Source of the DNA: the human T2T-CHM13v2.0 reference genome, Homo sapiens | Assembly: GCF_009914755.1 (NCBI RefSeq) | Contig: NC_060927.1 | Length of the DNA: 64,000 nt | Reading direction: 5' to 3' (one strand) | In this document: positions 4,908 to 16,832 of the stretch, one piece after another | Layout: every line of letters starts with the position of its first letter | Numbering within the stretch: the first letter of the stretch is position 1 | Notes under the pieces: generated by a model | The model's database searches: none | What the model was told of the DNA's origin: nothing | What the model saw: the letters and a program-made list of their open reading frames with translations, nothing else | Position numbers and translations under genes: made by a program

Positions 4908-5610
4908 ATGGGTATCAGACGTGCAAAAACCTCAAAAGATATCTCAATAGTCCAATCTACAATAGGGGTGTTATTTGCAGGAGTAATTGGGGAATTTGCA
5001 TATTTTATAACCTCTGGAATAATGGCTAACAATCTTATGTCAATTATGCCTGCACCTTTACAGGACTCAGGTTCCTCTCCGCCCCACAGCCTGATGGCCT
5101 CGCATTAGCTTTATAAAAGTGGTTGAGTTTTGCGGCAAGGCCTATTATCATTTAAACGATAGCCTACATGTCTTCCAAAGTTAGCTCAGCCCAACAGCCC
5201 AGGAATAATTAAGGGAATGGCAAGAAGGTGGGGGGTGACATTTCATCTTATTGTTATAATTTTCTAACTGATATAATTTTTGCAAAGCCAGTTTCAATAT
5301 CACCATTTTACAAATGAGAAACTTAGGAGTAAAGCATTTAAAGGTTTAAAAGTATATTTTAAAGGAGCTCAATGGTTAAAAGTCACCTTTATTAAAAGGT
5401 TAACATCCAAGATGTGTGTGTGTTTGTGTGTGTATGTGCATGTTTGTATTTAAAAGGCCTTCATGTCTTCATGTTTTTGTTTGTTTTTCTCTCTTAGGAC
5501 CTTGTCTTATTTTGAGCAAAAGTTTCTTTTTCTTCTCTGTTGACTGAATTTGGTTTTCACCTGATTTTTTGACTAAAACAGTTATTGCAACAGAGGCTAC
5601 TTTTGTGTTT

Positions 5611-5681
5611 GTAAGCCTTTATTTATATGACAAAATGTAATGACCCACCAAACACATGCCTACCATATAGTCAAACCCAGC
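5611..5681 (+). pseudogene. Micro-NUMT: mitochondrial ATP6 3' end / COX3 5' start
   Basis: Reads VSLYLYDKM* overlapping (TAATG) MTHQTHAYHMVKPS in the mitochondrial code; human mtDNA (recalled) reads VSLYLHDNT* / MTHQSHAYHMVKPS. Confidence 0.85.
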
Positions 5682-5726
5682 TTTTTTTTTTCTCTAAATT
5701 AAAGAGAAATAATTTAAGGAAGAGTG

Positions 5727-6139
5727 TTTCATGCGCGTCGGTGTGAAGAGACCACCAAACAGGCTTTGTGTGAGCAATAAAGCTGTTTATTTCACCTGGG
5801 TGCAGGCGGGCTGAGCCCGAAAAGAGAGTCAGCGAAGGGAGATAGGGGTGGGGCTATTTTATAGGATTTCAGTAGGTAAAGGAAAATTACAGTCGAAAGG
5901 GGATTGTTCTCTGGTGGGCAGAGTGGGGGTCACAAGGTACTCAGTGGGGGAGCTTTTGAGCCAGGATGAGCCAGGAGAAGGAATTTCACAAGACAATGTC
6001 ATCAGTTAAGGCAGGAACAGGCCATTTTCACTTCTTTTGTGGTGGAATGTCAGCAGTTAAGGCAGGAACCGGCCATCTGGATGTGTACCTGCAGGTCACA
6101 GGGGATATGATGGCTTAGCTTGGGCTCAGAGGCCTGACA
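5727..6139 (-). mobile_element. HERV-H 3' LTR (LTR7)
   Basis: Reverse strand TGTCAGGCCTCTGAGCCCAAGCTAAGCC...GCGCATGAAA; preceded by PPT AGAAGACAGGAA (6140-6151). Confidence 0.95.
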
Positions 6140-6149
6140 TTCCTGTCTT

Positions 6150-6740
6150 CTTATATTAATAAGAAAAATAAAATGAAATAGTGGTAAAGTGTTGAGGTGG
6201 CGAAAATTTTGGGGGGTGGTATGGAGAGATAATGGGTGATGTTTCTCAGGGCTGCTTCGAGCGGGATTGGGGCGGCGTGGGAACTTAGAATGGGAGAGAT
6301 TAAGCTGAAGGAAGATTTTGTGGTAAGAGGTGATATTGTGGGGTTGTTAGAAGAAACATTTGTCATTTAGAATTATTGGTGATGGCCTGGATACAGTTTT
6401 GTATGAATTGAAAACTAAATGGAATAAGGAGAAAAACAGGTATAAAAGGTCTAAATATTGGGACGACTCGGGACATCTGATTAGAGAGTGCCTGAGGAGA
6501 TTCAGCATAGTCCTGCCAGCAAAGATTATTTATTTACTTCAAGAGTTAAGAGTGGTAGTTTGAGGATAGCACCAGGTGATATCAGCTGTGATGGCTTGGA
6601 GAAACAGTGTAAACAGGCAGTGTAAACAAGAGCAGGGCATGTATGAGTAGTTGAGAACGGTGAATAGGAGTATGACTAGACAGAAGATAGTAGGGATGAC
6701 AAGTTTTTTTGGGGGCACAGTCTAAGTTGGTCTGGTGTCT
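6150..6740 (-). pseudogene. env: HERV-H env remnant (largely deleted) and 3' UTR
   Basis: Reverse translation near 6320-6420 gives FQFIQNCIQAITNNSK*QMFLLTTPQYHLLPQ, resembling the HERV-H Env TM C-terminus. Confidence 0.75.
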
Positions 6741-6749
6741 GGAATGAGA

Positions 6750-7650
6750 CTGGGGCCTAATAAAAAGGAGCGTCTATACAGGAGCTCAAATGGGCTGTAC
6801 CTTGTAGCATTCTGACGACAGGTCTGACTTCTGAGAAGGGAAAGTGGTAAAAGTATTGTCCAGTCCTTTTTAAGTTGGTGGCTGAGCTTGGTGAGGTGTG
6901 TTTTTAAAAGACCTTTAGTCCATTCTACTTTTCCTGAAGATGGAGGACCGTAAGGGATATAAAAGTTTCACTGAATACTAAGAGCCTGAAAAACTGCTTG
7001 GCTGATTTGACTAATAAAGTCTGGTCTGTTATCAGACTGTATAGAGGTGAGAAGGCTAAACTGAGGAATCATGTCTGACAGAAGGGAAGAAATGACTGCA
7101 GTGGACTTCTCAGACCCTGTAGGAAAGGCCTCTACCTATCCAGTGAAAGTGTCTACCTAGACTAAGAGGTATTTTAGTTATTTGACTCAGGGCATGTTGA
7201 GTAAAGCTAATTTGCCAGTCCTGGGTGGGGGCAAAACCTCGAGCTTGATGTGTAGGGAAGGGAGGGGGCTTGAATAATCCCTGAGGAGTAGTAGAATAGC
7301 AGATGGAACACTGAGAAGTTATTTCCTTGAGGATAGATTTCCACGATGGAAAGGAAATGAGAGGTTCTAAGAGGCGGGCTAGTGGCTTGTACCATAGCAT
7401 AGCCTGCCTTTGCTGGTGTGTGGCGATTAGGCCTGGTGGAACTGCCATCAATAAATCAAGCGTGATCAGGGTGAGGAACAGGAAAGAAGGAAATATGGGG
7501 AAATGGGGTGAATGTCAGGTGGATCAGAGAGATACAGTCATGGGGGTCAGGTGTGGTATCAGGAATAATGTGGGAGGCCGGATTGAAGTCTGGGCCAGGA
7601 ACAATGGTAATTGTGGGACTTAACAAAGAGTGAGTACAGCTGAAGGAGCC
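6750..7650 (-). pseudogene. pol: HERV-H pol RNase H/integrase remnant
   Basis: ORF 7110-7451 contains ITSQCSICYSTTPQG (CxxC of integrase HHCC) and QDWQI; frameshifted and deleted. Confidence 0.8.
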
Positions 7651-7989
7651 AGGGAGCAGAAAGTATATGCGTCAGGTATGAGGAAGAAAATAGATTTTGG
7701 AAGTTATGAGAAATGTAGAGAGTAAGTTGAGCATCGTTTGTGATTTTGAGGACCTCTAAAAGTATTAGGGCAGCAGCGGCAGCTGCATGGAGACATGAGG
7801 GCTAGGCTAAAACAGTAAGGTCAAGTTGTTTGGACAGAAAGGCTACAGGGTGTGGTCCTGGCTCTTGTGTAAGAATTCTGACCACGCTAACCATGCCTAG
7901 GAAGGAAAGGAGTTGTTGTTTTGTAAGGGATTGAGGTTTGGGAGATTAATCGGACATGATCAGCAGGGAAAGCACGTGTGTTTTTATGA

Positions 7990-8512
7990 GAATTATGCCG
8001 AGATAGGTAACAGATGAGGATGAAATTTGGGCTTGACTGAAGTAATGGGGGCTGTCTGTGAAGCCTTGCGGCAGTACAGCCCGGGTGACTTGCTGAGCCT
8101 AATGGGTGTCAGGGTCAGTCCAAGTGAAAGCAAAGAGAGGCTGGTATGAGGGGTGCAGGGGAATAGTGAAAAAAGCATCTTTAAGATCAAGCACGGAATA
8201 GTGAGTTGTGGAGGAAGGTATTGAGGACAAAAGAGTGTACGGGTTGGGCACCACAGGATGGATAGGCAAAACAATTTGGTTGATAAGGCTCAGATCCTGA
8301 ACTAATCTGTAAGACTTGTCCGGTTTTTGGACAGGTAAAATGGGGGAATTGTAAGGAGAGTTTACAGGCTTTAAAAGGCCATGCTGTAGCAGGCAAGTGA
8401 TAACAGGCTTTAATCCTTTCAAAGCATGCTGTGGGATGGGATATTGGCATTGAGCAGAGTAAGGGTGATTAGGTTTTAATGAGATGGTAAGGGGTGCATG
8501 ATCGGTCGCCAA
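7990..8512 (-). pseudogene. pol: HERV-H pol reverse-transcriptase remnant
   Basis: SPYNSPILPVQKPDKSYRLVQDL..VPNPYTLL..YSVLDLKDAFFTIPLHP..FAFTWTDP, then frameshift to LPQGFTDSPHYF; YxDD region deleted. Confidence 0.93.
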
Positions 8513-8559
8513 GGAGGGAGTAGACGTATCTTATACTTGTGGGTTAAGGTGGGGGAATA

Positions 8560-8889
8560 CAAGAGGAGGATGCAAAGGAGGCTTTGGATTGGGAAGAAGG
8601 GCAGCAATGAGATGTAGCTGTAATCCAGGAATAGTCAGGGAAGCAGATAATTTAGTTGAAGTGTCTCGGCCTAATAAGGGAACTGGGCAGGTGGGGATAA
8701 CTAAAAGGAGTGCTTAAAAGAGTATTGTCTAAATTGGCACCAGAGTTGGGGAGTTTTAAGAAGTTTAGAAGCCTGTCTGTCAATACCCACAACAGTTATG
8801 GAGGCAAAGGAAACAGGCCCTTGAAAATAAGGTAATGTGGAGTGAGTAGCCTTGGTATTGATTAAGAAGGGGACAGACTTACCCTCCAC
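8560..8889 (-). pseudogene. pro: HERV-H protease remnant
   Basis: FLINTKATHSTL (degenerate DTGA active site) ..ITVVGID..KTPQLWCQ. Confidence 0.8.
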
Positions 8890-8969
8890 TGTGAGAGTTA
8901 CCTGAAGCTCAGCGTCCGTGATGGTCTAGGGGGCTTCCGAGGTGATTGGGCAGCGTCAGTCTTCAGCTG

Positions 8970-10120
8970 CTAAGCCAAGAAGATCTGGGAAGCAGTCAGA
9001 GAGCCTTGGGCCAGAGTTCCAGGAGCTCTGGGAGTGGCTGCCAGGTGAGTTGAACAGTCTGATTTCCAGTGGGGTCCGGCACAGATGGGACACAGCTTAG
9101 GAGGAATCCTGGGCTGCAGGCATTCCTTGGCCTGGTGGCCAGATTTCTGGCACTTGTAGCAAGCTCCTGGGGGAGGAGGTTCTGGAGGAACGCCTGGCCA
9201 CTGCGGTTCAGGCGTTTGGAAGTTCTTGTGTGCTGGAGGTGTGGCTGGGGTTTGTCTCACAGTGGAGGCAAGGAATTGCAACTCTTTTCTATTATTGTAC
9301 ACCTTGAAGGCGAGGTTAATTAAATCCTGTTGTGGGGTTTGAGGGCTGGAATTTAATTTTTGGAGTTTTATTTAATGTCGGGAGCAGATTGGGTAATAAA
9401 ATGTATTTTGAGAATAAGATGGCCTTTTGACCTTTCAGGGTCTAGGGCTGTAAAGTATCTCAGGGTTGCTGCCAAATGAGTCATGAACTGGGCTGGGTTT
9501 TTCATATTTGATGAAAGAGCCTAAACGCTCACTGATTTGGGAGAGGTCTGATAAAGAAAAAGGAGCATTAACCTTGACTATGCCTTTAGCTTCAGCCACC
9601 TTTTTAAGAGTAAATTGCTGGGCAGGTGAGGGCTAGTCACGGAACGAAACTGTAAGCCGGACGGGGTGTGAGGAGGGGAGGTGATAAAAGGATTATAGGG
9701 TGGAGGAACAGGGGCTGAGGAAGAATTGGGACTTAGCTTGGCCTGGTGACAAGCAGCCTGAGGAGGAGGGGAAAGATCAGATGGGTCTGTAGAAAAGGAA
9801 GACTGGAAAGACTCAGCGACGCTTGGGGTTGGGACTAAGGGGACAGGTGGGAGGGAAAGAAGGAGGATTTGGTAGGAATTGCATTGGGAACAGAGACTAG
9901 AGAGGGACTGATGTGTAAAAGAACACCTGGACATCAGGCACCTCAGATCATTTGCCCATTTTATGACAAGAATTATTTAGATCTTGTAGGATGGAAAAAT
10001 TGAAAGTGCCATTTTCTGGCTATTTGGAACTACTGTCAAGTTTGTATTGGGGTCAAGCGGCATTGCAGAAGAAAATAAGATGCTTAGATTTTAGGTCAGG
10101 TGAGAGTTGAAGAGGTTTTA
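8970..10120 (-). pseudogene. gag: HERV-H gag remnant (proline-rich region and NC with two zinc knuckles)
   Basis: PPPY late-domain motif in ORF 9578-9934; CYKCQKSGHQAKEC and CPICAGPHWKSDC in ORF 8970-9302. Confidence 0.88.
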
Positions 10121-10199
10121 AGTTCTTAAGAACACAAGCTAAGGGAGAAGAAGGAGGAATGGAGGGTGGAAGTTTGCCCATAGTGAAGGAGGCAAGCCC

Positions 10200-10590
10200 A
10201 GAGAAAAGAGAGAGACATGGAGGGAAGGGGTTTGGGGGTTCTTACCCTCCAGAAAAGTGGGAAAGGGGTTGGGACACAGAGATACAAGGTCAGGGCATGG
10301 AAATAAGGGATTGGGGCACAGAGATAAGAGGTCAGTGCACAGAAATAAGGGATTGGGGTACAAAGATGTAAGAGGTTGGGGCATGGAAATAAGGGATTGG
10401 GGCACAGAGATACGAGGTTGGGGTACTTGCCCCTCCTCTAGAAAAGTGGGACTTGCCACTAAAAGTGAAGGAGAAGGGGTTGGGGGTTTCTTGTCCCCCA
10501 GAAAGGCAGAGAAGGGGTACAGACATGGAGAGAAGGGGTTGGGGTACTTGCCCCTACCCCAGAAAAGCAGGACTTGCCGCTAAGGGTGAA
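10200..10590. repeat. G-rich imperfect tandem repeats of the HERV-H 5' leader
   Basis: Repeated ggaaataagggattggggcacagagata and aggggttggggtacttgcccct..agaaaag..ggacttgcc units. Confidence 0.8.
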
Positions 10591-10867
10591 GGACCAAGGC
10601 AGGCATCCCTGCGTGGTCTGACACCTCTGAAACCTGGGTGAATAATCAGAGCAGTGTCCCTGCAATGATTAAACACCAAGGGAAGGCTGCCTTCCCTAGT
10701 CCGTGACCGGCGCTGGGGTTTTGGGTCCACGGATAAAACGTGTCTCCTTTGTCTCTACCAGAAAATGAAAGGAATTGAAATTAAAAGAAGGGAGAGATTG
10801 AAGAGTGGAAAGGAGAAAGTGGTTGAGGGACAGTGAGAGAGGTTGGAGAAGAGAGTAAAAAGAGGCC

Positions 10868-10876
10868 GCTTACCAG
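10868..10876 (-). promoter_or_regulatory. HERV-H major splice donor (CTG|GTAAGC)
   Basis: Reverse strand AAATCTG/GTAAGCGG ~145 nt downstream of the 5' LTR. Confidence 0.7.
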
Positions 10877-10999
10877 ATTTGAAATTGATGAGATGTTTCT
10901 TGGGCTGGTTGGTCTGAGGACCTGAGGTCATAGGTGGATCTTTCTCATGGAGCAAAGAGCAGGAGGACAGGGGATTGATCTCCCAAGGGAGGTCCCCCG

Positions 11000-11017
11000 A
11001 TCCGAGTCATGGCACCA
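11000..11017 (-). other. Primer binding site, tRNA-His
   Basis: TGGTGCCATGACTCGGAT next to the 5' LTR (one mismatch to TGGTGCCGTGACTCGGAT). Confidence 0.92.
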
Positions 11018-11019
11018 AA

Positions 11020-11428
11020 TTTCATGCACGTCTGTGTGAAGAGACCACCAAACAGGCTTTGTGTGAGCAGTAAAGCTGTTTATTTCACCTGGGTGCAGGT
11101 GGGCTGAGTCCGAAAAGAGTCAGTGAAGGGAGACAGGGGTGGGGCCATTTTATAAGATTTGGGTAGGTAAAGGAAAATTATAGTCAAAGGGGGGGTTGTT
11201 CTCTGGCGGGCAGAGTGGGGGTCACAAGGTACTCAGTGGGGGAGCTTTTGAGCCAGGATGAGCCAGGAGAAGGAATTTCACAAGACAGTGTCATCAGTTA
11301 AGGCAGGAACAGGCCATTTTCACTTCTTTTGTGGTAGAATGTCAGCAGTTAAGGCAGGAACTGCCCATCTGGATGTGTACATGCAGGTCACAGGGGATAT
11401 GGCTTAGCTTGGGCTCAGAGGGCTGACA
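11020..11428 (-). promoter_or_regulatory. HERV-H 5' LTR (LTR7) promoter/enhancer
   Basis: Direct repeat of 5727-6139; TATAAAA box, CCCCACCCC KLF-type motif, ACAAAAGA (11325-11332). Confidence 0.93.
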
Positions 11429-12344
11429 GAGTGTAGTTTAGACACTTAGAAATGTCTTTGTTTAAAGAAAAACTTTTTAAATGCACTGTAAAAACATCAC
11501 ATGGTCTAGCCTCATAATTATTCTCCCTTTTTGGAGACCCAGGATTCAGTGTGGGCTCTGCCCACAGCTCAGAGACCCAGTTTTGTTTTTTTTTTTTAAA
11601 GGTAGTTTCTACCAAAATAAGATTGGTCTCCTTATACAATTCTTTGAAAAATTTCTATAATTTTATATTTGATTTGGCATCAATCTTAGTCTTCTTCTAG
11701 CACCACCAGACTTTTTCTCTGTGAATCTTGAGATGGAAATTTTGCCATCTGATTTTTCATCTAAGAGTTACTTCCTTCAATATACAGATTTAGCGCTATT
11801 TAGCTGACAACTGCCAGAGTAAGGAAACAGGTTATCAAGGGTTTGCAAGTCTAAGATAGGAAAAAAAAGGAAGTCTTAGAAATCTGTAAGATACGCTTCT
11901 ATTGGCATGTCTAATACATCTATGTATTTATGTGTTGTATACATGCGTCACTACTGAAAATATAGAAAGAGTTCTAATTAATTGGCTTAAGAAAATAAAA
12001 GCACTTGACTTGAATGGTTTATCAGGAAAAAAAGAAAAGACTAGTTAAATGCTTTTTCAAGTTTATGTAACTTAAGTAAAATCTTTAATAAATAAGCTAG
12101 CTTTAAAATTATTGGTAATGTTAGAAATGTCTTAAGAATTGCCAGCATACATTTTTGTTTGCATTTATTGATCAAGCAATTTCATACTTATCCCTTCCAA
12201 ATACTACAAGGTGTCAAAATGTGGCATGGGGTAACAAAACTATAAACCCAACCCCAAACAGAATGATTTTTGCTTATGTAATTTTTAAGAAATAAGACAC
12301 TGATACAGGTTTAATGAAAATAGCTGCATCTTAAATTTAGTAAG

Positions 12345-12590
12345 ATTACCATAACTTCTCATCCCATGGCTTTAGACAGTCTAGTCCACAGGCAGTAAGG
12401 AGGTTTGTTTTGGGAAACAACTGTTACCATCTTTGTTTCAAAGCTAAACTATAAACTAAGTTCCTCCTAAATTTAGTTTGGCCTATGCCCAGGAATGAAC
12501 AAGGACAGCTTGGAGGTTAAAAGCAAGACAGATTCAGCTAGGCCAAATCTTTTTCACTGCCTCAGTTATAATTTTGCAATGGCAGTTTCA
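12345..12590 (-). mobile_element. LTR8-like segment in inverted orientation inside the MER4 internal region
   Basis: Reverse strand TGAAACTGCCATTGCAAAATTATAACTGAGGCAGTGAAAAAGAT..AAGCTGTCCTTGTTCATTCCTGGGCATAGG resembles the LTR8 5' end. Confidence 0.65.
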
Positions 12591-12871
12591 TAACTTTAAA
12601 TTATGACTATCGTAGTTTTCATAAATAATCTAGGTAAACAATTAAAATAACAATTAGGTAAACGTAATGGGATAAACACTTGTAGACTAACTTTTCATAA
12701 TTTAGAATATAAAGTTATATTAAATTAAATAATAGATATTTCATTATTTGGGTATTTTCCAATAAATATATGTTGTTGGAAAACATTCTTGCTAAAAAAA
12801 ATAGTGTGTCCTCTGTCCTTTTTAAGAAAAGGCGAACAAGTTTGTCTAATTCAAAGCTTATTTAAAGGTTA

Positions 12872-13432
<561 letters not shown>

Positions 13433-16384
13433 TTAAAAAACCCAAAACTTTTATATGATCAAGTTGTTTATAATTAAAGGGAAATTATAATGCTCTTTCT
13501 AGAGATTTGGCTTGATGCAAAAAAAACCACTTATACACTAAGTTATTGATTAGAACAATGACATTTTCTTAAGAGGTTGATTCACTCTTAATAAATTATA
13601 AGAGATTTTAATTCTTTTTTTAACCCAAAGTTTAACTTTTGTTGCATCTTGCTGTTTCTCTCCCCTTTTAAAAGGTACATTTTCTTAAAGGTCTAAGGGA
13701 AATGTTTTCTTCCAACATAATATTCTGTGCACTGTGGAAGATATTTTCTTTTGCCTTTTGGTAACTTGTGTAATGGATTTTATGTTTTATCAAAATAATT
13801 AGTATGCCATTATTATTAACTTTGTTTTGCTTCCCAGGAAAAAACTGAAATTTAATTTTTTTAAAAAATTAAGTTTATTATATTCATGTATCTTCCTGTA
13901 TGTGCTTTTAAAGTCCTTGTGACATTGAGTTACAGGACTTTGACTCCTGGATCTAAAACGGCCACCAAGTCCGGCTAAATCTTAAACACTGACAGCCCTG
14001 TAATAGATGGCACATAAAATTAACTGCATTACTGAGACCCAGGGCCAGAAATTAAATCTATTCAGCTCTTCAAGGCCCAGGGACTATTTCAGTAGAGGTG
14101 GGCATGTGAGATTGTAAGGGCCAACTTTAAAAGATAAAAATAAGTTCAGTTTCTCTATAAATTAATCATTAATGTCAAAGGCACACTGATGCAAGACCAG
14201 CATATGGGCCCCTGTGTCAGATTAACAAGGTTTTCTTGAGGCATTAACTGATTCCTTAATAATGGTTATAAAGGTTATAAAAGGCTTCTGGAAGTTATAT
14301 CTTATGGTAAAGATTTAAATGTTATAGATTGTTTATACATTTTGAAAAACAAATTTAATTGGCTTCATACTGTTTTTATTAGGGCTTATTGTTTGGGAAA
14401 TTAAATCTCCTCTCTAAAAGAATAAAGGTTTTGCCTGTTTTTGAAATCTTTGAGTTATTACTTTGGTTAAAAGAATGACTTATTTTACAATGACTTGTGA
14501 TCCTATTTTGTGATATCAAGTGTTTTAAACCTTTGATATTTGACAAACTTTTCAAAATCAAATTATAAATTATGTCTTTTTCTGACTTAATTAATCCTCT
14601 AAGATATTAGTTTCCCTAAAGTCCAAAAATGACATAATTTTGACATTTAGTAGTACAAAAATTATATAGGAAGCATTATCAAATATAAAATGGTGTTTGG
14701 TTTTCTTTGTTAATTTGTATAAATACGTTGTTGATATGTATTCTAAAATTTTGGGACACTCCTGTAATTCTGATATGACTTTACCAGTAATAATGATAAT
14801 TGTTAAAATTATTGTCTGCCACAGAGGTAACAAATTTCCTTGTCAATTTTGTCTTTGACTATGGGTTCCCTAAAACTTTTTGTCATCCTTGGACAATGGT
14901 TGTGTTGTTTTGGTCCTCTTTGGAAGGTGGTTTTATAATCATCTATAAAACTATAACAGGTGCTCTCGAATGCAGGTTTCTGATAACTTTGGAGACTGTG
15001 ACATCAGAATAAAGGAAAAACTTTCAGGACTCATGCATAGAGTGCTAAAATGTTCATGAATATCAACCAGAACAGGAATTAACTGCATGGACTGAACTAA
15101 TCTTTTTGACTTTTTGCTTAAAATGTTGCTGATCATTTGTTTTGTTTTTCAGAGTCTTGAAATTTTTCTTCTGAGCTATTGACAGTTTTGGCAATTTAGT
15201 ATACTCTTATGAACAAAATTTGGAGCACATTTGTTTCTCTCTACCTGATTTCTCCAGAATTTGGAAACTATTTGTGAGTATTCTTAATTTATGGCAATCC
15301 AGTTATTTGCATAAGTGCAACAAGAATTTGTTTTCATTTGTAACAGGACACAATTGGAGAAATTTGTTATTTTACCAAGGCTTTGACTGGAATGGTGTGT
15401 TGTCCTTTAAGGAATCAAACTTGACTCATGGAACCAAAAAAGTCCTTGGGAAAACTGGCCTCATAGTTTACACAGTCCCTCTACAGGGTTTCTGACCTAT
15501 GGTAAGTAAAGAATGTCATTTTCAGAAAGGCCCAGGAGCCCCAAATTTATCTTGGAACCTCAAGAGGAGGGGAAATTCACCCAACTCATAGGTATTTGAT
15601 GGTACAAGTCCATGGTTGGGTTCAGCTTTAAAAGTCTTATCTGAGATTCCTTCTATAGTAAAAACTTCCATCAAAGCCAAATTTTAAAAACATATGTGAA
15701 AAATAATTATTCTTGCTGCACTTTATACAAATAATCTGACCAAATATAATAAAGCAAATCAGTCCTACCATGATTTGTCTTTAGTAAAAATGGAAAACTG
15801 GAGAGAGAAAAATTATGTTTCAAAAACTATTGTACACTTGTTGTTAGATTTGAGTCTTTCCTAATGTTTTTCAATTTTTATTATTTTCTACAGTTTGGGC
15901 TAAATTATAATTTTTCCTGGCTACAAGTTTTCAAAATAATATTTTTAATTTTTTTCTTCTTTCTTTTCCTTTTCCCCCCATTTTTGTCCTAATTTGAAAT
16001 CACTGAAAACAAAGCTGTGTTTTCTTAAAACCCTGTGAACTGAAGCCAGACACCTTAAACTTCAGAAGAAAATAACAGCAACCTATTTACATACATAAGC
16101 CACTTTCATATCTGCCTACTAATGTATGGACTTCAGAGTAATGTGACCTATATCAATTTTCCAGGATCCTTCTTTTGTTTGTTGTTGTTTTTCTCCTTTC
16201 CTCCCCCTCCTTTCTCTTCATAGGACATGAGACTTCACAATCTGCTAAAAATGAGCTTTCAGGAGCTACCCATCTAGAAATAAACTGTCCTAGCCATGAG
16301 AGATCAGATGAAACCTGAGACCAGAAACTAATTTCCTTCTAAAATGCTTTCTCCAAAAGATTTTTTAAAAGAAAAGAGGGGAAA

Positions 16385-16832
16385 TGTGACAGGAAAATCT
16401 TGGGGCCACGAAATTACTAAGCTAATGGAAAAAGTCAAGCTGGGAACTGCTCAGGGCAAATCTGCCTCCCTTTGTATTCAAAGTCATCCCTCTGCTCACT
16501 GAGATAAATGCATATCCGGTTGCCTCCTTTGGGAAATCTTATCAGAAACTCAAAATAATGCAATTATTTGCCTGTTGCCTACCTGTGACTTGGAAGCCCC
16601 CTCCCTGCTTCGGGTTGTCCTCATCTTTCTGGAGGGAATCAATGTACTTCTTACATATATTGATTGATGTCTCATGTCTTCCTAAAATATGTAAGACCAA
16701 GCTGTGCCCTGACCACCTTGGGCACATGTTGTCAGGACTTCCTGAGGCTGTGTTACAGGTGCACATCTTCAACCTTGGCAAAATAAACTTTATAAATTAA
16801 CTGAGACCTCTCTCAAATTTTGGGGTTTCACA
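16385..16832 (+). mobile_element. MER4A1 LTR (3' LTR of the MER4 provirus)
   Basis: tgtgacaggaaaatcttgggg..aagtcaagctgggaactgc..ggcaaaataaacttt..ggggtttcaca; directly follows the PPT. Confidence 0.88.

What the first reader, a model, noticed from the sequence alone, without database searches (positions are those of the whole stretch)
5611..5681. 71-bp mitochondrial micro-NUMT (ATP6/COX3 junction) hidden inside an ERV, 45 bp from the HERV-H integration site
Seen: gtaagcctttatttatatgacaaaatgTAATGacccaccaaacacatgcctaccatatagtcaaacccagc encodes VSLYLYDKM* and MTHQTHAYHMVKPS with the TAATG stop/start overlap typical of mammalian ATP6/COX3. Against my recalled human mtDNA (~m.9178-9248) I count about 12 mismatches in 71 nt, which suggests an old primate mtDNA. 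It interrupts MER4 internal sequence, so it post-dates that ERV. Short, repeat-masked NUMTs are easily missed by catalogues.
Basis: partly seen in the sequence, partly recalled or inferred. Interest (0 to 1): 0.8.

Follow-up and report, generated by a model that had tools for sequence, protein, structure and literature searches.

The report
Known 71-bp mitochondrial fragment in ERV
This is a real but long-catalogued 71-base piece of old mitochondrial DNA that was patched into a chromosome break inside an ancient retrovirus remnant; it is an inert fossil and an ordinary one.

Summary
Window 5611-5681 reads as quoted and, under the vertebrate mitochondrial code, gives an ATP6-type end (VSLYLYDKM*) overlapping a COX3 start (MTHQTHAYHMVKPS) in TAATG. 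It is a genuine NUMT. It matches 17 other NUMTs in the same genome at 82-92% identity.

It is not new. It is in the 2012 hg19 list. It is also numt_596 (CHM13 chr3:190283611-190283681, "fixed", present in GRCh38) in a 2026 pangenome catalogue.

Context:
- It lies in a locus-specific 103-bp insertion in the non-coding internal part of a 5'-truncated LTR element, "R" (3' LTR at 16385-16832). The MER4 name could not be checked.
- 10 of 10 other R copies lack the insertion, so this was break-repair capture, not retroviral capture.
Positions 5682-5715 look copied from R's own sequence at 12941-12979, with a 17/17 exact core.
- The break site TTTTT/AAG took an Alu in another R copy.
- A minus-strand HERV-H-type provirus (5727-11428, target-site duplication GAGTG) sits 8-11 bp beyond the insertion.

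Interest is low.

The parts
5341..5610 (+). Left part of the host repeat R, the non-coding internal region of a 5'-truncated LTR element
   Evidence: Matches 10 of 10 fetched R copies at 76-94% identity. All matches stop at 5610-5615. In the other copies the sequence runs straight on into the bases found at window 5719 onward.
5611..5681 (+). The NUMT (chrM 9177-9247/9248): last 9 codons plus stop of ATP6, overlapping the first 14 codons of COX3
   Evidence: sequence and translations. (17 genomic NUMT relatives; homology ends sharply at both edges). (the aligned relative L021 carries ATP-synt_A followed by COX3). (catalogue rows).
5682..5715 (+). Filler co-inserted with the NUMT: T10 plus AT-rich bases, probably copied from R's own sequence at 12941-12979
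   Evidence: Gapped local alignment of 5683-5715 to 12941-12979, with an exact 17/17 core at 5699-5715 = 12963-12979. 0 of 500 shuffles and 0 of 7,200 local 22-mers reach a 15-base match. No other match in the assembly.
5716..5726 (+). R resumes (AAGGAAGAGTG). The last 5 bases, GAGTG (5722-5726), are the left target-site duplication of the provirus.
   Evidence: other copies read ...tttttaag GAAGAGTGTAG.....
5727..11428 (-). HERV-H-type provirus: LTRs at 5727-6138 and 11020-11428, with the 5-bp duplication GAGTG repeated at 11429-11433
   Evidence: LTR pair 93.2% identical over 413 aligned columns. tRNA-His-type primer-binding motif at 11000-11017 on the minus strand, 17 of 18 (motif recalled). 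RVT_1 at 8102-8530 and a Gag zinc knuckle at 8973-9371, both on the minus strand. Ends read. The family name rests on recall of the LTR7 termini.
11434..12979 (+). R internal region continues. Positions 12941-12979 are the putative donor of the filler.
   Evidence: 8 copies align from 11428-11436 onward. (the donor stretch is R's own sequence in L011, L039 and L040).
12980..13266 (+). Alu insertion in R, with a 15-16-bp target-site duplication (12965-12979/80 and 13267-13281/82)
   Evidence: sequence. (many Alu-type matches). The name 'Alu' is from recall.
13282..16384 (+). Remainder of the R internal region
   Evidence: 15199-16830 aligns to L037, and 16177-16814 to L036.
16385..16832 (+). 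3' LTR of R (starts TGTG, ends CACA)
   Evidence: 75% identical to L034 6607-7088. In that copy this stretch lies about 1 kb upstream of the part homologous to window 5359, so it is a 5' LTR there.

Best explanation
Window 5611-5681 is a fixed, old nuclear copy of mitochondrial DNA (a NUMT). It is a 71-bp fragment across the ATP6/COX3 gene junction. It was used as patch DNA when a chromosomal break inside an already resident LTR-retroelement remnant (R) was rejoined by end joining.

The break lay in or next to the T-run of TTTTT/AAG. The repair product is a 103-bp insertion made of two parts: the mtDNA fragment, followed by about 34 nt that look like a copy of R's own sequence 1.5 kb downstream (proximal templated filler).

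Little or no target sequence was lost, at most 2 nt depending on where the junctions are placed. The fragment has no function: it carries 9 + 14 codons with no promoter context, and has since decayed neutrally. A HERV-H-type provirus later or earlier integrated independently 8-11 bp to the right.

Shown: mitochondrial origin, locus-specificity, host-repeat context, catalogue status. Inferred: end-joining capture, templated origin of the filler, a single event, and age.
For: 1. Mitochondrial origin.
- The 71 nt align without gaps to the junction in L021. There the upstream frame is ATP-synt_A ending at the stop, and the downstream 262-codon frame is open under table 2. That frame scores 402 bits to Pfam COX3 and 535 bits to human COX3 chain 9i6f_C.
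- The window's 14 COX3 residues match 13 of the 14 N-terminal residues of the human chain printed.
- Catalogues give chrM 9177-9247/8 at exactly these bases.

2. Locus-specific insertion into R.
- 10 of 10 other R copies read through the site without it.
- In one search, 23 matches cover only the R flank and 17 cover only the NUMT. None covers both.

3. R resumes at 5716-5726 and again after the provirus at 11434.

4. Filler.
- Exact 17-mer plus T-run alignment to 12941-12979.
- Nulls: 0 of 500 shuffles and 0 of 7,200 local 22-mers.
- Three other R copies differ at 1-3 of the 17 bases.

5. The break site is cleavable. Copy L013 carries an Alu with duplicated flanks inserted at the same T-run.

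6. Fit to the literature.
- NUMTs enter by end joining, with microhomology or blunt junctions and few deletions. 10 of 90 cases had a second insertion of more than 5 nt at a junction (PMC2567098, passages read).
- Duplications from donors less than 5 km... less than 5 kb away bear double-strand-break repair hallmarks, including 1-68-nt fillers (PMC2671141, abstract and section 7).
- TTTTAA is enriched in NUMT flanks (PMC3467031, passages).
Against: - No mitochondrial genome was available (24 contigs, no chrM). The identity figure to mtDNA (83.1%) is therefore the catalogue's, not mine.
- No outgroup genome was available. No orthologous empty site was seen, and the empty-site argument rests on paralogous copies.
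- The left junction is ambiguous. The mtDNA fragment starts GTAAG and R reads TTAAG at the break, so three placements of the junctions fit equally well (0-4 nt of microhomology, 0-2 nt lost, or a 5-nt duplication).
- The filler match is short and AT-rich. Its alignment to the donor needs three gaps (6 nt) and two mismatches. Chance, or a second later event, cannot be excluded.
- I tested the filler against mtDNA only through NUMT proxies covering ATP6-COX3 plus or minus about 1.5 kb (best E 0.72), not against a whole mitogenome.
Confidence: 0.9

Rival explanations
1. The mtDNA fragment was picked up by the retroelement (retroviral or retrotransposon capture) and spread with it.
For: It lies inside the internal region of an LTR element.
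Against: 10 of 10 other copies of R lack it. Among the 40 non-self matches, none joins the R flank to the NUMT. The same 71 nt elsewhere in the genome always sit inside longer NUMTs with mitochondrial flanks.
Confidence: 0.01
2. The insert is RNA-derived: a polyadenylated mitochondrial or other transcript reverse-transcribed by L1 at its TTTTT/AAG target, with the T10 run as the tail.
For: A 10-nt T-run abuts the NUMT. The target is an L1-endonuclease-type site, and another R copy took an Alu there.
Against: The T-run follows the sense strand of ATP6/COX3. On the other strand the A-run therefore precedes the antisense mt sequence and cannot be its 3' tail. For target-primed reverse transcription the T-run should abut the left R flank, but the NUMT lies between them. 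The donor stretch in R has its own T9 run at 12941-12949, which accounts for the T10. PMC3467031 found no correspondence between NUMT ends and mitochondrial poly-A sites.
Confidence: 0.03
3. NUMT capture and filler are two separate events: a small local duplication or insertion at the site, before or after the mtDNA capture.
For: Hazkani-Covo and Covo class junction insertions of more than 5 nt as 'two events in one fusion point' (10 of 90). Nothing in one genome orders the two pieces.
Against: Two independent insertions at the same phosphodiester bond, without any intervening target base, is less parsimonious than one complex repair.
Confidence: 0.15
4. The nearness of the provirus is causal: a break made during HERV-H integration, or an aborted integration, was what captured the mtDNA.
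For: The right junction of the insert (5715/5718) is only 3-6 bp from the provirus's 5-bp target duplication (5722-5726).
Against: The provirus has a clean 5-bp duplication made of R sequence and intact LTR ends, so it was a normal integration that needs no extra repair. The insertion site has its own explanation as an L1-endonuclease-type T-run. By my rough count (recalled element numbers), a handful-of-bp neighbour pair somewhere in the genome is not very improbable once many windows are scanned.
Confidence: 0.04
5. Chance resemblance of AT-rich repeat sequence to mtDNA.
For: The first 27 nt are T-rich and carry 9 of the 12 differences from human mtDNA that I count from memory.
Against: E 3.5e-21 in a whole-genome search. 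There are only 3 differences from the majority of eight old NUMTs over 71 nt. The flanks are R, but the 71 nt are absent from R.
Confidence: 0.005

Closest known systems
HSA_NumtS_169 (RHNumtS.2, Simone et al. 2011, PMC3228558; hg19 list in Calabrese et al. 2012, PMC3314570) = numt_596.chrM:9177-9248 (PMC13179385, Supplementary Data 3)
   Same: It is this very object: chr3, + strand, 71 bp, mt 9177-9247/8, 83.1% identity. Coordinates are hg18 188666663-188666733, hg19 187183969-187184039 and CHM13 190283611-190283681, which equals window 5611-5681. It is classed 'reference, fixed, present in GRCh38'.
   Different: Nothing differs. The rows I saw give no repeat context, junction anatomy or filler.
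NUMT insertion by non-homologous end joining (Hazkani-Covo and Covo 2008, PMC2567098)
   Same: mtDNA acts as patch DNA at a break. One junction has possible short or imperfect microhomology and the other is blunt. Target loss is 0-2 nt. An extra insertion of more than 5 nt sits at one junction, a class seen in 10 of their 90 cases.
   Different: Their cases are human- or chimpanzee-specific with orthologous empty sites. This one is old, and its empty site is inferred from paralogous repeat copies.
Repair-mediated duplications of proximal DNA (Pace, Sen, Batzer, Feschotte 2009, PMC2671141)
   Same: The filler appears copied from a donor less than 5 kb away on the same strand (1.5 kb if the provirus was not yet there, 7.2 kb if it was). 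Those authors also detected their events as interruptions of repeats.
   Different: Their pipeline required insertions of at least 50 bp. This copy is about 34 nt, imperfect, and joined to a NUMT.
L1-endonuclease-nick hypothesis for NUMT insertion (Tsuji et al. 2012, PMC3467031)
   Same: The target is TTTTT/AAG, which contains the TTTTAA consensus. An independent R copy has an Alu inserted at the same T-run.
   Different: That paper offers the idea as speculation. It also reports that NUMTs straddled by retrotransposons are rare (10 of 557), and this one is so straddled.

Membership tests
NUMT (nuclear mitochondrial DNA segment) | Significant sequence similarity to mitochondrial DNA | tested here: met
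   Indirectly: 17 NUMT relatives at 82-92% identity, and an ungapped alignment to L021, whose flanks are ATP-synt_A and COX3. Directly only through catalogues: 83.1% over 71 bp. No chrM was available to me.
NUMT (nuclear mitochondrial DNA segment) | Colinear with the mitochondrial gene order and readable in the mitochondrial code | tested here: met
   ATP6-type end, TAATG overlap and COX3 start under table 2. 13 of 14 residues equal the human COX3 N-terminus printed.
NUMT (nuclear mitochondrial DNA segment) | Embedded in nuclear sequence, with an empty site lacking it | tested here: met
   Both flanks are the nuclear repeat R. 10 of 10 paralogous copies are 'empty'. The orthologous empty site in another primate was not testable.
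   No Dfam, Repbase or RepeatMasker was available. The LTR at 16385-16832 looks MER4-like to my memory only.
   A 448-bp 3' LTR at 16385-16832. Its homologue lies 5' of the internal region in copy L034. The window copy lacks the 5' LTR and about 1 kb.
   0 of 44 open-frame fragments of at least 40 aa from 5341-5615 and 11428-16832 hit a retroviral Pfam family at E <= 1. 5 of the 49 fragments listed were left out, all overlapping the Alu. Old or non-autonomous elements may show none.
HERV-H provirus | Paired LTRs, short target-site duplication, tRNA-His primer-binding site, gamma-type gag-pol order | tested here: met
   LTR pair 93.2% over 413 columns. GAGTG duplication. 17 of 18 match to the recalled His primer-binding motif beside the 5' LTR. 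zf-CCHC then RVT_1 on the minus strand. Likeness to the LTR7 consensus is from recall only.
Repair-mediated duplication (Pace et al. 2009) | Insertion of at least 50 bp copied from a donor less than 5 kb away, interrupting a repeat | tested here: not met
   The donor is 1.5 kb away (provirus removed) and a repeat is interrupted, but the copy is only about 34 nt. It works like one but falls below their size criterion.

The most novel reading that the evidence does not exclude
The 103-bp insert records one complex repair of an L1-endonuclease-type nick or break (TTTTT/AAG) inside an ERV remnant. That repair both captured a 71-bp mtDNA fragment and primed about 34 nt of synthesis on the same element 1.5 kb downstream. 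It would be a natural, fixed example linking L1-endonuclease breaks, NUMT capture and templated (SDSA or polymerase-theta-like) filler synthesis in the primate germ line. It would also imply, from the donor-distance rule of under 5 kb, that the event preceded the HERV-H integration 8-11 bp away.
Probability: 0.3. Interest if true: 0.3.

Novelty: already known. Interest (0 to 1): 0.1.

Why it matters
It matters little. The NUMT has been in public catalogues since 2011 and is classed as fixed, so it is neither a discovery nor a gap in the catalogues. Its practical relevance is the usual one: a short mtDNA look-alike that can attract short reads or primers aimed at m.9177-9248.

The modest added value of this report is the anatomy of the junction:
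- a NUMT inside a retroelement, a class reported as rare (10 of 557 in PMC3467031);
- an L1-endonuclease-type target that took an Alu in a sister copy;
- a filler that seems copied from 1.5 kb away.

This is one anecdotal data point for existing models of NUMT insertion, not a new kind of thing.

Tried and rejected
- **Retroviral capture.** Rejected: 10 of 10 other R copies are empty, and no spanning match appears.
- **Fragment of a larger NUMT split by later insertions.** Rejected: R sequence abuts both sides of the insert. BLAST of 5500-5800 against 21 NUMT loci found nothing beyond 5608-5681 better than E 0.72.
- **Filler as a second mtDNA piece.** Not supported, but tested only against NUMT proxies for the ATP6-COX3 neighbourhood, not a whole mitogenome.
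- **Filler elsewhere in the genome.** Only a self match. The tool skips simple and very common words.
- **T10 as a poly-A tail.** Rejected on orientation and because the donor has its own T9.
- **Naming R.**
  - Pfam on 44 open-frame fragments gave no retroviral domain.
I then used open fragments by reference.
- **T2T NUMT list of PMC10671835.** The stored supplement is cut and shows only accession lists. '190283' was not found in what is held, so that catalogue could not be checked.
- **Chimpanzee orthologue in PMC3314570 file 2.** I searched six mt start coordinates guessed from a recalled numbering offset and got 0 hits. This is uninformative, and the rhesus file was not searched.
- **Supplementary Data 8-9 of PMC13179385 (primate sharing).** These were not reached. 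File 2 is cut, and 'numt_596' occurs only in Data 3. They may hold the age of this NUMT.
- **Ordering the NUMT and the provirus.** Not possible from one genome. Rough clocks overlap: the NUMT has 2 private changes in 71 nt, and the LTR pair has 22 mismatches plus 6 gap columns in 413.

Full report
**Observation**

Under the vertebrate mitochondrial code, 5611-5640 gives VSLYLYDKM* and 5640-5681 gives MTHQTHAYHMVKPS. The stop and start share one A (TAATG, 5638-5642).

**Is it mitochondrial?**

The assembly held for this window has 24 contigs and no mitochondrial chromosome, so I used two indirect routes.

The first route was a DNA search of the whole assembly with 5560-5740. It listed 41 matches including self:
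- 17 cover only 5608/5611-5681, at 82-92% identity (best E 3.5e-21).
- 23 cover only 5560-5610/5615.
- None covers both.

A Pfam COX3 search of the assembly found 128 matches. By my comparison of the two tables, 15 of the 17 DNA matches lie directly beside one of these.

The most intact copy is L021 on contig 17. Its 262-codon frame is open under table 2, scores 402 bits to Pfam COX3 and scores 535 bits to human COX3 chains 9i6f_C/5z62_C. The frame just upstream is ATP-synt_A running to its stop. The window's 71 nt align to that junction without a gap. In every NUMT relative the homology continues on both sides with mitochondrial sequence. In the window it stops dead at 5611 and 5681.

The second route was the published catalogues:
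- RHNumtS.2 lists HSA_NumtS_169 (HSP r_87): chr3 +, mt 9177-9247, 71 bp, hg18 188666663-188666733, 83.1% identity. It is marked validated by 'HAPMAP' and not by PCR (PMC3228558, supplementary files 1 and 3).
- The hg19 list gives 187183969-187184039 (PMC3314570, file 1).
- A 2026 pangenome study lists numt_596.chrM:9177-9248 at CHM13 chr3:190283611-190283681. This is window 5611-5681 to the base. It is classed as reference, fixed (allele frequency at least 95% by their definition) and present in GRCh38 (PMC13179385, Supplementary Data 3 row 458 and main-text passages).

So the observation and the NUMT reading are right, and the suggestion that catalogues miss it is wrong.

**Source lineage**

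Over the 71 nt the window differs as follows:
- at 5-10 positions from eight old NUMTs (L002-L010, L023);
- at 3 positions from their majority;
- at 14 positions from L021 (11 transitions, 3 transversions);
- at 17-18 positions from two others.

Only two positions are private to the window against all 11 relatives. These are 5634 and 5636, the latter a CpG-to-TpG change. COX3 residue 5 is Thr in the window and Ser in the human protein.

The fragment therefore came from an older mitochondrial lineage, and most of its distance from modern human mtDNA is mitochondrial change after the transfer. With recalled neutral rates of about 1-2 x 10^-9 per site per year, 2-3 nuclear changes in 71 nt suggest very roughly 10-40 million years. 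This is inference with a very wide error.

**Context**

The left flank 5341-5610/5615 belongs to a dispersed repeat, here called R. In 10 of 10 fetched copies the sequence ...gggtttttaag runs straight into GAAGAGTGTAGTTTAGACAC....

In the window, GAAGAGTG is at 5719-5726 and TAGTTTAGACAC follows at 11434. R therefore carries two insertions here:
- a 103-bp insertion containing the NUMT;
- 8-11 bp further on, a 5.7-kb provirus on the minus strand (5727-11428) flanked by the duplication GAGTG (5722-5726 and 11429-11433).

The provirus has:
- LTRs 93.2% alike, with 22 mismatches and 6 gap columns in 413;
- a tRNA-His-type primer-binding motif (17 of 18; motif recalled) two bases inside the 5' LTR;
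- a Gag zinc knuckle followed by RVT_1 on the minus strand.

The names HERV-H and LTR7 rest on my recall of the LTR ends.

R continues to 16832, interrupted by an Alu at 12980-13266 with a 15-16-bp duplication. It ends in a 448-bp LTR (TGTG...CACA, 16385-16832). The homologue of this LTR lies upstream of the internal region in copy L034.

R is thus an LTR retroelement whose window copy has lost its 5' LTR and about 1 kb. None of 44 open-frame fragments hit a retroviral Pfam domain. I cannot confirm or reject the name MER4-int, because no repeat library is at hand.

**The '45 bp'**

Positions 5682-5718 are not R at that position.
- The 17-mer at 5699-5715 recurs exactly at 12963-12979, 1.5 kb downstream in R once the provirus is discounted.
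- A local alignment extends this to 5683-5715 against 12941-12979, with the T-runs matching. It has 31 identities, two mismatches and three gaps totalling 6 nt.
- That stretch is R's own sequence. Copies L011, L039 and L040 have it with 3, 1 and 1 differences in the 17-mer.
- Controls: 0 of 500 shuffles of the 22-nt core reach 15 bases (maximum 13). 0 of 7,200 22-mers of the locus itself have a 15-base exact match within 2.1 kb.
- The filler has no other match in the assembly.

I read the filler as proximal templated DNA laid down in the same repair. This is the kind of event Pace et al. describe for donors under 5 kb away, with fillers of 1-68 nt (PMC2671141, abstract and section 7). It falls below their 50-bp cut-off.

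Hazkani-Covo and Covo found that NUMTs enter by end joining with microhomology or blunt junctions and few deletions. In 10 of their 90 cases a further insertion of more than 5 nt sat at one junction (PMC2567098, passages).

**The break site**

The mtDNA piece starts GTAAG and R reads TTAAG there, so the junctions can be drawn three ways:
- a clean 103-bp insertion between GGGTTT and TTAAGG with nothing lost;
- a 4-nt TAAG overlap on the left with a 5-nt duplication on the right;
- a break exactly at TTTTT/AAGG with two T lost on the left and the whole 17-mer templated.

I cannot choose between them.

The site contains the L1-endonuclease consensus TTTTAA. In copy L013 an Alu with duplicated flanks sits at the same T-run, so this sequence has been cut by that enzyme at least once.

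Tsuji et al. report TTTTAA enriched in NUMT flanks (P about 0.0014). They speculate that L1-endonuclease nicks seed NUMT insertions, and they find NUMTs straddled by retrotransposons rare, 10 of 557 (PMC3467031, passages).

**What is not shown**

- The order of the NUMT and the provirus is unknown.
- The age on the primate tree is unknown.
- Whether the NUMT and filler were one event is not established.
- The family name of R is unverified.

All four need other primate genomes or a repeat library. The supplementary tables that may give primate sharing (PMC13179385 Data 8-9) and the T2T list of PMC10671835 were cut in storage and could not be read.

**Verdict**

This is a real, correctly read, already catalogued, fixed micro-NUMT. 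It is an inert fossil of a break repair inside an old ERV remnant. Interest is low.

Noticed in passing
window 5683-6520: The RefSeq 'enhancer' feature in the hub's table starts 2 bases after the NUMT. It covers the filler plus the 3' LTR of the minus-strand provirus. The activity is most likely that of the LTR, and the NUMT itself lies outside the feature.
   Followed up: no
window 5701-5715, 12965-12979, 13267-13281: The same 15-mer occurs three times in the window: in the filler beside the NUMT, and as both copies of the target-site duplication of the Alu at 12980-13266. So the filler's exact match ends within one base of where that Alu later or earlier entered the donor. No explanation is offered beyond both processes favouring T-run/A junctions.
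   Followed up: partly
L013 1548-1880 (G000 contig 2): Another copy of repeat R carries a minus-orientation Alu, with duplicated flanks, at the same TTTTT/AAG site where the window copy took the NUMT.
   Followed up: yes
window 5558/5559 versus L012, L013, L014, L017, L018, L019: Six of ten R copies have about 210 extra bases between the positions homologous to 5558 and 5559. The window copy and four others lack them. This may be a subfamily indel or an old insertion; it was not examined.
   Followed up: no
window 5300-5340 and 5409-5440: Just left of R's truncated start is a stretch that looks to me (recall) like a MIR core. Inside R there is a short GT-rich microsatellite.
   Followed up: no
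G000 contigs 13, 14, 15, 21, 22 (short arms): Many near-identical COX3 fragments (model positions 59-197 and 213-257, 4 TGA each) are spread over acrocentric short arms and pericentromeres. This fits NUMT copies amplified by segmental duplication, as the catalogues also report.
   Followed up: no
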